From Aquirufa sp. (GTDB lineage Bacteria; Bacteroidota; Bacteroidia; Cytophagales; Spirosomataceae), in the NCBI GenBank assembly GCA_044236555.1, contig JBIIGE010000001.1, positions 669 to 64,668 on the forward strand: DNA of 64,000 nt, read 5' to 3'. This document shows, piece by piece, positions 47,560 to 50,164 of this stretch. The notes beneath the pieces were generated by a model, which worked only from the letters and a program-made list of their open reading frames with translations, searched no databases and was not told the origin of the DNA. A program made the position numbers and the translations under genes. Within the stretch, counting starts at the first letter, position 1, and each line of letters starts with the position of its first letter.

Positions 47560-49104
47560 ATGAGAAAAAGAATATCAAACGACGATAGCCGTCGTAGCAG
47601 CCGACCATCAGAAGGTCGTGCACCAGAAGGAAGATCTACAGCAAGATCTACCGGCAGATCAGAAGGTCGCTCTTCCACAGGTCGTGATTTTAACGGCCCA
47701 CGTAATGACTCAGGTGCCCCACGTGCACCCCGTTCAGAATCAAGCAATCGTTTTTCAGGAGAACGCAAGCCCTACCAAGGTGGCGGTGATCGCAAACCAT
47801 TTGATGGCGAAAGAAAACCGTATCAAGGTGGAGATCGCAAACCATTCAATCGCGATAACCGCGAAGGTGGCGAACGACGTTCGTTTGGGGACCGCAAGCC
47901 ATTTGATGGAGAGCGTAAGCCCTATCAAGGTGGTGAAAGAAAACCATTTAATCGTGATAATCGCGAAGGTGGCGAACGCCGTTCCTTTGGGGACCGTAAG
48001 CCATTTGATGGGGAACGCAAACCGTATCAAGGCGGAGAGCGTAAGCCTTTTGGCAGAACTGAAAATCCAACACGCACACCCTATAAAGGAGATAATCGCT
48101 GGGATCGCAACGCGGCTCCTAAAGCAGATGGTTCGGAAGAATCGACGAAACCGCGTGATGAGAATCCAACAGCTCGTATTGAGCGTCGCTACGAGGAGCG
48201 TACGGAACGTTCGGCAGATCGCACAGAGAGTCCTGAAGGTGCTCGCAATCCACGTTATTCTGATCGCGAGACTTTTAAAAGTCGTTCTCGTTTTGATGCG
48301 GGGCCTGCCTACGAGCCTCAATATAAATTAGATCGTTACAAGGAGCGTGCTCCTTCGAAAATCCAAAAGAAAATTGCTCAAACCGAACGTCGCTCTGACG
48401 AAATTCGCTTAAACCGCTACATTGCAAACGCGGGAATTTGTTCTCGTCGCGATGCCGATAAATTAATCGAAGCAGGGGAGATCAAAGTAAATAACAAGGT
48501 GATCACAGAAATGGGATACCAGGTGAAGCCTACGGATATCGTGAAATATGGTAACCGCAAGTTGAACCGCGAAAAACCAGTTTACTTATTATTAAATAAG
48601 CCCAAAGACTTCTTAACCACCACCGACGACCCTAACGATCGCAAGACCGTAATGGAACTTGTAAAGAACGCAACTGAATCGCGCATTTACCCGGTAGGAC
48701 GTTTAGATAGAAATACGACTGGTTTATTGTTATTGACAAATGATGGGGAATTAGCGGATAAATTAACCCACCCATCAAACGAAATCGAGAAGATTTACCA
48801 AGCGGAATTAGACAAGCCTTTGACGGACGAAGATTTCGAGAAAATCAAGGAAGGTTTAACTTTAGAGGATGGTGAAATTAAAGTAGATGATTTAGCCAAA
48901 GTCACTCCAGATGGTTATGTCATCGGTGTTAAAATTCACTCTGGCAAGAATCGCATCGTTCGTCGTATTTTCGAACACCTCGGTTACGAAGTAACGAAAC
49001 TAGATCGCACTACCTTCTCTGGCTTAACCAAGAAAGATCTTCCACGCGGAAGCTGGAGATTCTTAACCGAGAGAGAGTTAGTGAAGTTGAAGTATTTGAT
49101 GTAG
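47560..49104 (+). CDS. rRNA pseudouridine synthase (RluB/RsuA family, S4 domain) with ~280-aa disordered N-terminus
   Basis: RLNRYIANAGICSRRDAD, LLNKPK, PVGRLDRNTTGLLLLTNDG and GKNRIVRR. Confidence 0.95.
   Translation: MRKRISNDDSRRSSRPSEGRAPEGRSTARSTGRSEGRSSTGRDFNGPRNDSGAPRAPRSESSNRFSGERKPYQGGGDRKPFDGERKPYQGGDRKPFNRDNREGGERRSFGDRKPFDGERKPYQGGERKPFNRDNREGGERRSFGDRKPFDGERKPYQGGERKPFGRTENPTRTPYKGDNRWDRNAAPKADGSEESTKPRDENPTARIERRYEERTERSADRTESPEGARNPRYSDRETFKSRSRFDAGPAYEPQYKLDRYKERAPSKIQKKIAQTERRSDEIRLNRYIANAGICSRRDADKLIEAGEIKVNNKVITEMGYQVKPTDIVKYGNRKLNREKPVYLLLNKPKDFLTTTDDPNDRKTVMELVKNATESRIYPVGRLDRNTTGLLLLTNDGELADKLTHPSNEIEKIYQAELDKPLTDEDFEKIKEGLTLEDGEIKVDDLAKVTPDGYVIGVKIHSGKNRIVRRIFEHLGYEVTKLDRTTFSGLTKKDLPRGSWRFLTERELVKLKYLM
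47785..48051 (+). repeat. 102-bp (34-aa) coding tandem repeat, about 2.6 copies
   Basis: GDRKPFDGERKPYQGG(D/E)RKPF(NRDNREGGERRSF) units start at 47785, 47887 and 47989. Confidence 0.92.
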
Positions 49105-49200
49105 TCGAAGCGAAGCTGCGAGTACAGTAAACAGTAAACAGTAGTCGGTAGCCAGTGTTTGACTAGTTACTGTCTACTGATTACTGTCCACTGTCGACTA
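49102..49200. repeat. Heptamer-periodic inverted repeat (CAGTnnn x5 facing ACTRnnn x6)
   Basis: CAGTAAA CAGTAAA CAGTAGT CGGTAGC CAGTGTT at 49125-49159, then ACTAGTT ACTGTCT ACTGATT ACTGTCC ACTGTCG ACTA at 49162-49200. Outer TAGTCGA/TCGACTA inverted pair. Confidence 0.9.
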
Positions 49201-49240
49201 ACAAAAAAGCCGTTGAAGGAATTCAACGGCTTTTTTGTTA
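49199..49240. terminator. Bidirectional rho-independent terminator
   Basis: Perfect 19-bp arms TAACAAAAAAGCCGTTGAA-ggaa-TTCAACGGCTTTTTTGTTA. Confidence 0.93.
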
Positions 49241-50164
49241 AATATTCATCAACGATTCTCTGCGTCTCATCTTTCCAGCTGGAATGCCGAACATCATCTT
49301 GAAACGACGGCAGAAATACGCCGTGTCTTTATAACCTACTTCGGAACCGATCGCGCGGATGGATTTCTTCGTTGTGCGAAGTAAACCTACTGCCGCTTCC
49401 ATACGTTGGTACTCGATATAATCTTGTGGGTTGATACCCGTTAACATCTTGAAATATTGACCTACGTAGTCTTCTGATACGTTTGCGACGTTCGCCAAAA
49501 CTTTATTTGACAAATCACCACCCAAATGATCCTTGATGTAAGCGAAGATATCGATTAAGCGTGGATCTTTAAAGTAGGTCGAGTTCGTAGCTAATTGCTC
49601 TACAAATAAACGGTTCTCAATGATGTAACGAATCACTTCGATTACAATTTCTTCCGTTTTGATTTTAATAATACGGCCTTTACCAATCGCATCTGACAAA
49701 TCTTCTTCTAAGATTTCACGGATGGTTGCCGCTAATTTATCATCACGTTTGATTAAGAACGGAGGAATATCTAGGGAAGTGAAGAAGTTTACTGAATCGA
49801 AAACTTTCGCTTCGAAGGCCACCATTCCGAATGAGTTAGGTTGCATTCCGATTTGAGATGCGTCGGTATTTTGATCAAAATACAGTTCCCGGTGCGTCAT
49901 GAACTCTTCATTGTTCACCGCTTTCGGTTTTTCTGCGTTTCCGTACGTTACACTGATCATTTTGCCTCCTGGGATAAAAAGCATATCGCCTTCTTCCACT
50001 GGTGTTTCCTCTTCTCCAAAAGAAACCTCCCCTTTGTACAATATCAAGAGTGAATTTTCTACGTCATAGAAATTCTTGATACGAATCGGTTGTAATATTC
50101 TAATGTTGCGCGCTTTGATGAATTTAACACCTAAGGACTCGATGATCTTGTTATAATCTTCCAT
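49238..50164 (-). CDS. AraC-family transcriptional regulator
   Basis: Cupin-like N-terminus; C-terminal double HTH (LANVANVSEDY..FK..TG..; IGSEVGY.DTAYFCRRFK..FG). Confidence 0.93.
   Translation of the reverse strand: MEDYNKIIESLGVKFIKARNIRILQPIRIKNFYDVENSLLILYKGEVSFGEEETPVEEGDMLFIPGGKMISVTYGNAEKPKAVNNEEFMTHRELYFDQNTDASQIGMQPNSFGMVAFEAKVFDSVNFFTSLDIPPFLIKRDDKLAATIREILEEDLSDAIGKGRIIKIKTEEIVIEVIRYIIENRLFVEQLATNSTYFKDPRLIDIFAYIKDHLGGDLSNKVLANVANVSEDYVGQYFKMLTGINPQDYIEYQRMEAAVGLLRTTKKSIRAIGSEVGYKDTAYFCRRFKMMFGIPAGKMRRRESLMNI

What the first reader, a model, noticed from the sequence alone, without database searches (positions are those of the whole stretch)
49102..49200. 7-nt-periodic inverted-repeat hairpin element between a stop codon and its terminator (possible cargo-less mobile/REP-like cassette)
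Seen: five CAGTnnn heptads (49125-49159) face six ACTRnnn heptads (49162-49200) at a strict 7-nt period, inside an outer TAGTCGA...TCGACTA inverted pair that includes the upstream stop codon. On the + strand it folds into a long stem with roughly one mismatch per 7 bp. The CGGTAGC unit pairs fully with GTTACTG only through two G-U wobbles, which suggests a strand-specific RNA or ssDNA structure. A separate perfect terminator lies next to it, so the element is not needed for termination. Recalled, not verified: similar heptamer arrays resemble cyanobacterial STRR repeats and flank small accessory genes (four-helix-bundle/23S-IVP-like, GxxExxY) in Bacteroidota. Inference: this is the empty form of a heptad-bracketed insertion system, or a protein-bound 3'-UTR element.
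Basis: partly seen in the sequence, partly recalled or inferred. Interest (0 to 1): 0.8.

Follow-up and report, generated by a model that had tools for sequence, protein, structure and literature searches.

The report
Gene-less heptamer hairpin after stop codon
This hairpin of mirrored 7-base repeats behind a gene in a freshwater Aquirufa-type bacterium is one fast-changing copy of a genome-wide repeat family of a known but unexplained kind; the same repeat arms bracket a small four-helix-bundle gene elsewhere, and the family likely acts as folded single-stranded DNA rather than as an RNA signal.

Summary
The genome holds 173 period-7 arrays, 157 of them outside ORFs. They concentrate between convergent genes (44 of 128) and sit purine arm first (57 versus 2). 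That layout is published for Xanthomonas heptamers (PMC4692102).

The rluB-araC insert is confined to one clade and lost once inside it. It is remodelled very fast: one strain differs at 2 of 618 coding bases but 22 of 96 element bases, and another has 7- and 28-base indels.

No cargo gene occurs at this site (0 of 78 orthologous spacers). Both PF05635 four-helix-bundle genes of the genome, and 51 of 58 scorable ones in the genus, are bracketed by matching inverted arms whose motif follows the protein subfamily.

The G-U/strand-specific RNA argument failed (9 versus 10). Embedded mini-hairpins favour C-G-closed GNA triloops, a DNA-specific stable loop, in both orientations.

Best reading: a gene-less, DNA-level relative of the four-helix-bundle cassette; mobility and protein binding are untested. 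The scan noted this class before on other DNA.

The parts
47560..49104 (+). rluB-like pseudouridine synthase (S4 + PseudoU_synth_2), 514 aa; its TAG stop is the first triplet of the element
49102..49124 (.). Module A: 10-bp stop-codon hairpin with a C-G-closed GAA triloop (GCGAAGC at 49110-49116); imperfect in this strain
   Evidence: loop GNA in 7, its reverse complement TNC in 6, other in 8 of 21 alleles
49125..49159 (+). Module B left arm: five CAGT-type heptads (one CGGT)
49162..49203 (+). Module B right arm: six ACTR-type heptads, reverse complement of the same unit family
49199..49240 (.). Bidirectional intrinsic-terminator-like hairpin (19-bp perfect stem, A6/T6 tracts) ending on the araC stop codon; differences between strains are compensatory (49209/49230, 49213/49226)
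49238..50164 (-). AraC-family regulator, 308 aa, convergent with rluB

Best explanation
The element is one gene-less copy of a genome-wide family of heptamer-armed hairpins whose arms are the same kind that bracket four-helix-bundle (PF05635) genes, and it is likely a non-autonomous DNA element kept and reshuffled as folded single-stranded DNA. Shown: arrays sit at gene 3' ends, purine arm first; this copy was gained by one clade, lost once inside it, and changes by 7-base multiples and whole-unit swaps between strains with near-identical flanks; arm motif follows the four-helix-bundle subfamily. Inferred: slippage plus unit-wise conversion among the roughly 170 arrays drives the turnover; the C-GNA-G triloops are read in single-stranded or cruciform DNA; the four-helix-bundle protein would be the factor that recognises or seeds the arms. 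The spot behind the stop codon is likely just a tolerated landing place. Any stabilising effect on the rluB mRNA would be secondary.
For: Period 7: 173 arrays, against at most 17 for periods 4, 5, 6, 8, 9, 10, 11, 13 (30 for period 12, 125 for the harmonic 14); 157 of 173 outside ORFs. Convergent 44/128, tandem 35/463, divergent 5/239. Same-family pairs purine arm first 57 versus 2. Both PF05635 genes in G000 are bracketed. In 51 of 58 scorable genus loci (of 71 fetched) the arms match as inverted repeats: mean similarity 0.69 inverted, 0.06 direct, 0.10 cross-locus. Each of the four motif families of G000 has a four-helix-bundle subfamily with that arm. The unit types inserted at this site in five relatives are those flanking other subfamilies. 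Insert in a 100/100 clade, 12 of 25 genomes; lost in L197 inside that clade. Run X9: 2/618 coding versus 22/96 element differences; X7: -7 and +28 nt. L189: flanks about identical, different arms. C-G-closed triloops near arrays are GNA/TNC in 19 of 32, against 57 of 417 in genes and 0 of 3 for G-C closure; both orientations occur at this site. d(GNA) loops with C-G closure are extra stable in DNA and much less so in RNA (PMC13037366 passages; PMC3201870 abstract). Empty AGAG or CAGT hairpins occur in 37 of 51 genomes with PF05635 and 1 of 10 without (kin not independent).
Against: No cargo at this site in 78 spacers. Where relatives carry the gene and G000 does not, G000 has arrays at 5 of 6 junctions, but of a different motif each time (two of the six matched on one flank only), so they are not simple deletion products. 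Near-complete G010 and G014 have 43 and 33 AGAG hairpin matches yet lack the AGAG-arm subfamily. 14 of 51 genomes with PF05635 have no empty hairpin of the two motifs searched. No transposase or target duplication was identified. The triloop counts include repeated copies; 8 of 21 alleles here have other loops; non-array intergenic hairpins are also somewhat enriched (12 of 49). The strong 3'-end bias and polarity tie the arrays to transcription direction, which fits an RNA role as well.
Confidence: 0.5

Rival explanations
1. The hairpins are selected RNA elements: long 3'-UTR or intercistronic stems that protect mRNA ends, give RNase III sites (as rRNA intervening-sequence stems do) or replace terminators.
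For: Arrays start at stop codons and avoid divergent spacers. 24 of 44 convergent array spacers have no canonical terminator by my scan. Similar hairpins with other motifs follow the rluB stop in Arcicella and several more distant Bacteroidota loci. The Coxiella S23p IVS has heptamer repeats at an RNase III-cut stem (PMC4990558 passages).
Against: No strand preference: G-U excess 9 versus 10, energy 14 versus 9 of 23. The loop flips between GNA and TNC on the same strand. Most of the genus and L197 do without the insert. Array presence does not reduce terminator frequency in convergent spacers (20/44 versus 33/84). Own-arm pairing is rarely the best match (rank 1 in 2 of 14).
Confidence: 0.25
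2. The arrays are neutral by-products of a mutational process (polymerase slippage on 7-mers plus fold-back template switching) that accumulate wherever tolerated; the four-helix-bundle gene is only a passenger that picks up the same arrays.
For: 7-multiple indels and hypervariability; partial duplications of the terminator arm in several alleles; arrays persist without the cognate subfamily; a general heptamer excess attributed to slippage is cited in PMC4679880.
Against: The arms are not copies of each other (variable triplets differ). Polarity is 57:2. Motif follows the protein subfamily rather than the site or the genome. Nearly all four-helix-bundle genes are bracketed while only about a tenth of all spacers carry arrays (84 of 830).
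Confidence: 0.2
3. A classical REP/REPIN or MITE moved by a Y1 (RAYT) or DDE transposase.
For: Short, palindromic, intergenic, multi-copy, 3'-biased, with presence/absence.
Against: No PF01797 in G000 (73% complete) nor in near-complete array-rich G005, G010, G014, G020. No conserved unit sequence or length between copies. Only the Y1 family was searched.
Confidence: 0.05

Closest known systems
Heptameric intergenic repeats in convergent inverted pairs: GGGAATC of Xanthomonas, GGGGAYT of Nostoc (Rehm et al. 2015, PMC4692102; passages and section 10 read)
   Same: 7-nt degenerate units, intergenic, purine-rich strand just after stop codons or on the antisense strand before starts, many facing pairs, rare between divergent genes, variable length between relatives, function unknown.
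   Different: No G-tracts, so the G-quadruplex reading does not apply. At least four motif families coexist and nest in one genome. Embedded GNA-triloop hairpins and a link to PF05635 were not seen in the passages I read.
TAACTGA repeats of Beggiatoaceae, Cyanobacteria and Bacteroidetes (MacGregor 2015, PMC4679880; abstract, introduction, sections 12 and 24, passages read)
   Same: ACTG-core heptamers before start codons and reversed after stop codons; in Bacteroidetes the spacers hold several heptamer types and are absent from close relatives.
   Different: The exact TAACTGA unit is not in this element. The paper treats them as direct repeats (one inverted case) and proposes translational control; the terms 'helix bundle', 'IVS' and 'intervening' do not occur in its main text. 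Supplements not read.
S23p-encoding intervening sequences of 23S rRNA (Coxiella IVS, Warrier et al. 2016, PMC4990558; passages read)
   Same: PF05635 gene inside terminal inverted repeats, with variable tandem heptamers (GACAGAT) in the 5' arm.
   Different: Here the cassettes lie between protein genes, not in rRNA; this copy has no ORF; RNase III excision is untested.
DGR target hairpins and Avd (Paul et al. 2015, PMC4372165; passages read)
   Same: DNA hairpins with GRA triloops act in cis in elements that encode Avd; the C118 four-helix-bundle protein has a weak bAvd-like hit (E 2e-4, below cut-off).
   Different: No template/variable repeat and no linked reverse transcriptase; the only RT found in G000 lies on another contig. 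Analogy only.
REP/BIME/REPIN elements with RAYT transposases (recalled, not read)
   Same: Small intergenic palindromes at gene 3' ends.
   Different: No Y1 transposase in array-rich genomes; arms are tandem heptamers without a fixed sequence.

Membership tests
Heptameric intergenic inverted repeats (Rehm 2015 type) | Tandem degenerate 7-nt units, mostly intergenic | tested here: met
   173 period-7 arrays, 157 outside ORFs
Heptameric intergenic inverted repeats (Rehm 2015 type) | Facing pairs, purine strand after stop codons, rare between divergent genes | tested here: met
   57 versus 2; 44/128 convergent versus 5/239 divergent
Heptameric intergenic inverted repeats (Rehm 2015 type) | GGG tracts able to form G-quadruplexes | tested here: not met
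   units of this element are CAGTnnn without G3 runs
TAACTGA repeats (MacGregor 2015) | Exact TAACTGA direct repeats | tested here: not met
   right-arm units share the ACTG core only
Heptad-bracketed PF05635 cassette / S23p IVS | Inverted arms of matching motif | tested here: met
Heptad-bracketed PF05635 cassette / S23p IVS | PF05635 ORF between the arms at this locus | tested here: not met
   0 of 78 orthologous spacers
Heptad-bracketed PF05635 cassette / S23p IVS | Location in 23S rRNA | tested here: not met
   lies between rluB and araC
Heptad-bracketed PF05635 cassette / S23p IVS | Excision by RNase III | not testable with these tools
   only assembled RNA contigs were available; no cover or joint at the element
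REP/REPIN-RAYT | Cognate Y1 tyrosine transposase in the genome | tested here: not met
   (G000 only 73% complete, but four near-complete array-bearing relatives also lack it)
REP/REPIN-RAYT or MITE | Conserved element sequence and length between copies | tested here: not met
   alleles of 125-207 nt with different unit types at one site
MITE | Target-site duplication | tested here: inconclusive
   the whole spacer differs from insert-free relatives, so no empty target can be aligned
Cyanobacterial STRR | STRR1-6 consensus heptamers | not tested
   recalled name only; one search returned no STRR paper of use

The most novel reading that the evidence does not exclude
Four-helix-bundle (S23p/Avd-like) proteins are motif-specific binders of folded single-stranded DNA that seed and rewrite heptamer arrays. 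Each protein subfamily has its own 7-mer word; the gene-less hairpins capped by C-GNA-G DNA loops are its non-autonomous copies, rewritten unit by unit far faster than neutral sequence. This would explain the long-noted excess of 7-nt repeats in bacterial genomes as the footprint of an undescribed transposase-free mobile system.
Probability: 0.25. Interest if true: 0.85.

Novelty: new variant of a known kind. Interest (0 to 1): 0.45.

Why it matters
Heptamer repeats are over-represented in many bacteria without an accepted explanation, and PF05635 proteins have no known function. Aquirufa offers cultured strains, several arm motifs each tied to a protein subfamily, and one site with gained, lost and rewritten alleles. 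That makes the link directly testable. The single locus is ordinary within its genome; its value is as a clean natural allelic series.

Tried and rejected
Rfam scan: 13 weak hits, none at gathering score. RNA evidence: four metatranscriptome contig sets cover rluB and araC but barely the spacer and show no joint there; contigs cannot show ends, so uninformative. G-U strand bias: none. Cross-pairing of arms among 14 CAGT-type alleles: own arms pair better on average (residual -5 kcal/mol, permutation p 5e-5 as RNA; -1.9, p 0.002 as DNA), but the own arm ranked first in only 2 of 14 (RNA), two long alleles weigh heavily and alleles are related, so I do not count it as base-level covariation. Module A covariation on 9 alleles is modest: 2 pairs change on both sides, 11 of 500 shuffles reach the score. 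Search for other cargo between facing arrays in G000 gave five spans: one PF05635 gene, two without ORF, two with ordinary-looking genes more likely bracketed by independent neighbouring arrays; the strict pattern missed the C118 cassette. PF13366 and PF01797 not found in G000. The RT on C47 is unlinked. Gene calls were crude ORF calls of at least 90 aa, so small genes are missed and the spacer totals differ slightly. No structure or complex prediction was run: the tools cannot score protein-DNA binding.

Full report
Setting. The window lies in a 1.88-Mb, 73%-complete genome (G000). Its closest named relatives by RluB are Aquirufa species at 98-99% identity. The finding is the spacer between the convergent genes rluB (47560-49104, +) and an AraC regulator (49238-50164, -).

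Observation. The heptads, the outer TAGTCGA/TCGACTA pair and the adjacent terminator are as described. The region folds far better than shuffles on both strands. The stem can slide by one unit, and the two G-U pairs exist in only one of two similar registers. The spacer has three modules: A, a 10-bp hairpin starting at the stop codon with a GAA triloop (49102-49124); B, the facing heptad arms (49125-49203); C, a two-way terminator ending on the araC stop (49199-49240).

A genome-wide family. A motif-free scan found 173 period-7 arrays, against at most 17 for most other periods, 157 of them outside ORFs. They occupy 44 of 128 convergent, 35 of 463 tandem and 5 of 239 divergent spacers. Same-family pairs are purine arm first in 57 cases and reversed in 2. 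At least four motif families coexist: of 51 empty-hairpin matches (some overlapping), 35 are AGAG, 9 CAGT, 5 ATGG and 2 AAAG. In the genus, empty AGAG hairpins occur in 30 of 61 genomes and CAGT-type in 34 of 61, with reversed-pattern controls near zero. These positional rules match the Xanthomonas GGGAATC repeats (PMC4692102, passages and section 10) and the TAACTGA repeats (PMC4679880), so the class is known.

History of this site. Among 25 genus genomes, 12 carry an insert (spacer 125-207 nt) and 13 only a terminator (56-81 nt). The 12 form one 100/100 clade. With metagenome loci added, L197 sits inside that clade and has no insert. Inside the clade the arms switch between CAGT heptads, AGTCGCT heptads and TTAGTC-plus-mini-hairpin units. 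Turnover is very fast. Run X9 differs from the window at 2 of 618 flanking coding bases but at 22 of 96 element bases, often as whole triplets; run X7 has a 7-nt deletion and a 28-nt insertion; X2 and X4 hold a second allele. L189 has near-identical flanks and different arms. None of 78 orthologous spacers (25, 53, some duplicates) is long enough for a gene. One of 162 rluB loci had a four-helix-bundle hit, about 1.2 kb downstream in a distant genus.

Link to four-helix-bundle genes. G000 has two PF05635 genes, both bracketed by facing arrays: CAGT type on C118 and ATGG type on C149. Of 71 PF05635 loci fetched from the genus (of about 105 listed), 58 had scorable arms on both sides and 51 matched as inverted repeats. 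The 13 unscored loci mostly have longer-period units. Arm motif follows the protein subfamily: three or more subfamilies with different motifs alternate at the yihA-hemE junction, in both orientations. Every motif family of G000, and the other unit types seen at this site, is the arm of some subfamily. At six junctions filled in relatives and unfilled in G000, five carry arrays in G000, but of another motif, and two of the six were matched on one flank only. They look like shared hotspots, not direct deletion scars. Empty hairpins of the two searched motifs occur in 37 of 51 genomes with PF05635 and 1 of 10 without (tallied by hand, Fisher p 4e-4, but kin are not independent). All 11 genomes with the AGAG-arm subfamily at 68% identity or more have at least 8 AGAG matches. 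Against a strict dependence, near-complete G010 and G014 have many such matches and lack that subfamily.

DNA or RNA. In contrast, C-G-closed triloop hairpins near arrays have GNA or TNC loops in 19 of 32 cases, against 57 of 417 in genes, 12 of 49 in other spacers and 0 of 3 for G-C closure. Around four-helix-bundle genes the upstream arm shows TNC in 35 of 47 and the downstream arm GNA in 32 of 41 such hairpins (many related copies). At this site module A has GNA in 7, TNC in 6 and other loops in 8 of 21 alleles, so either DNA strand may carry the loop. d(GCGNAGC) mini-hairpins are exceptionally stable in DNA and much less so in RNA, and occur at primase and N4 RNA polymerase sites (PMC13037366, passages). 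C-G closure is the stabilising one (PMC3201870, abstract). GRA triloops also mark DGR target hairpins (PMC4372165, passages). This favours a DNA-level element, by inference. The 3'-end bias still allows an RNA role, and the RNA contigs could not test it.

Mechanism. Shown: family membership, polarity, clade-level gain, one loss, unit-wise hypervariability, shared arms with PF05635 cassettes. Inferred: slippage and conversion among arrays drive turnover; folded DNA is the recognised form; the four-helix-bundle protein is the recognising or seeding factor. No mobilising enzyme was found: PF01797 is absent from G000 and from four near-complete array-bearing relatives, and the single RT is unlinked. 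Confidence 0.5, against 0.25 for a selected RNA stem, 0.2 for neutral mutational debris and 0.05 for REP/MITE.

Novelty. Facing heptamer pairs are published, and heptamers in an S23p IVS arm are published (PMC4990558, passages). A general link between such arrays and PF05635 genes outside rRNA, and the GNA-triloop signature, did not turn up in my searches. The library lacks most subscription journals, and I did not read the supplements of the papers above, which may bear on this. Mrazek 2007 was seen only as cited. The scan itself has noted the cassette in 88 findings and the gene-less form several times on other genomes; those notes are leads, and the claims here rest on my own calls. Verdict: real, a new variant of a known but unexplained kind, interest 0.45.

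Noticed in passing
G000:C118:1745-2382 (L031) and L033-L066, L086, L090: The four-helix-bundle cassette between yihA/engB and hemE occurs in both orientations and with at least three protein subfamilies, each with its own arm motif; the arms end just before apparent TAnnTTTG promoter elements (consensus recalled).
   Followed up: partly
L031-L101, about 50-90 nt upstream of the four-helix-bundle start: A TATCA motif lies upstream of 55 of 71 genes, in 34 as an inverted TGATAA/TTATCA pair, across subfamilies of 40-60% identity; possible operator or recombination site. No background rate was computed.
   Followed up: partly
G000 convergent spacers, e.g. C3:1118-1196, C149:3615-3709, C160:9260-9358: The heptad hairpin fills the spacer from stop codon to stop codon with no canonical terminator; 24 of 44 convergent array spacers lack one by my scan.
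   Followed up: partly
L129, L130, L132, L133, L213 (Arcicella-like), L186, L230, L240, L254, L256, L267: Heptad arrays of other motifs follow the rluB stop codon independently in more distant Bacteroidota.
   Followed up: no
L006, L009, L011, L012, L189, L191, L198 spacers: Partial duplication of the terminator's right arm next to the araC stop, suggesting template switching at these hairpins.
   Followed up: no
L102:1222-2325 (G000:C47): Stand-alone 367-aa reverse transcriptase (PF00078) beside a 77-aa ORF and a divergent regulator-like ORF; type not determined, no arrays linked.
   Followed up: no
window 47560-48300: The N-terminal low-complexity region of RluB holds tandem peptide repeats that differ in copy number among metatranscriptome contigs (skips of 90-207 nt); probably strain variation.
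   Followed up: no
L067, L069, L072, L076-L078: The AGAG-arm four-helix-bundle subfamily has complete small hairpins on each side rather than single arms; its flanking genes were not found in the G000 assembly.
   Followed up: partly
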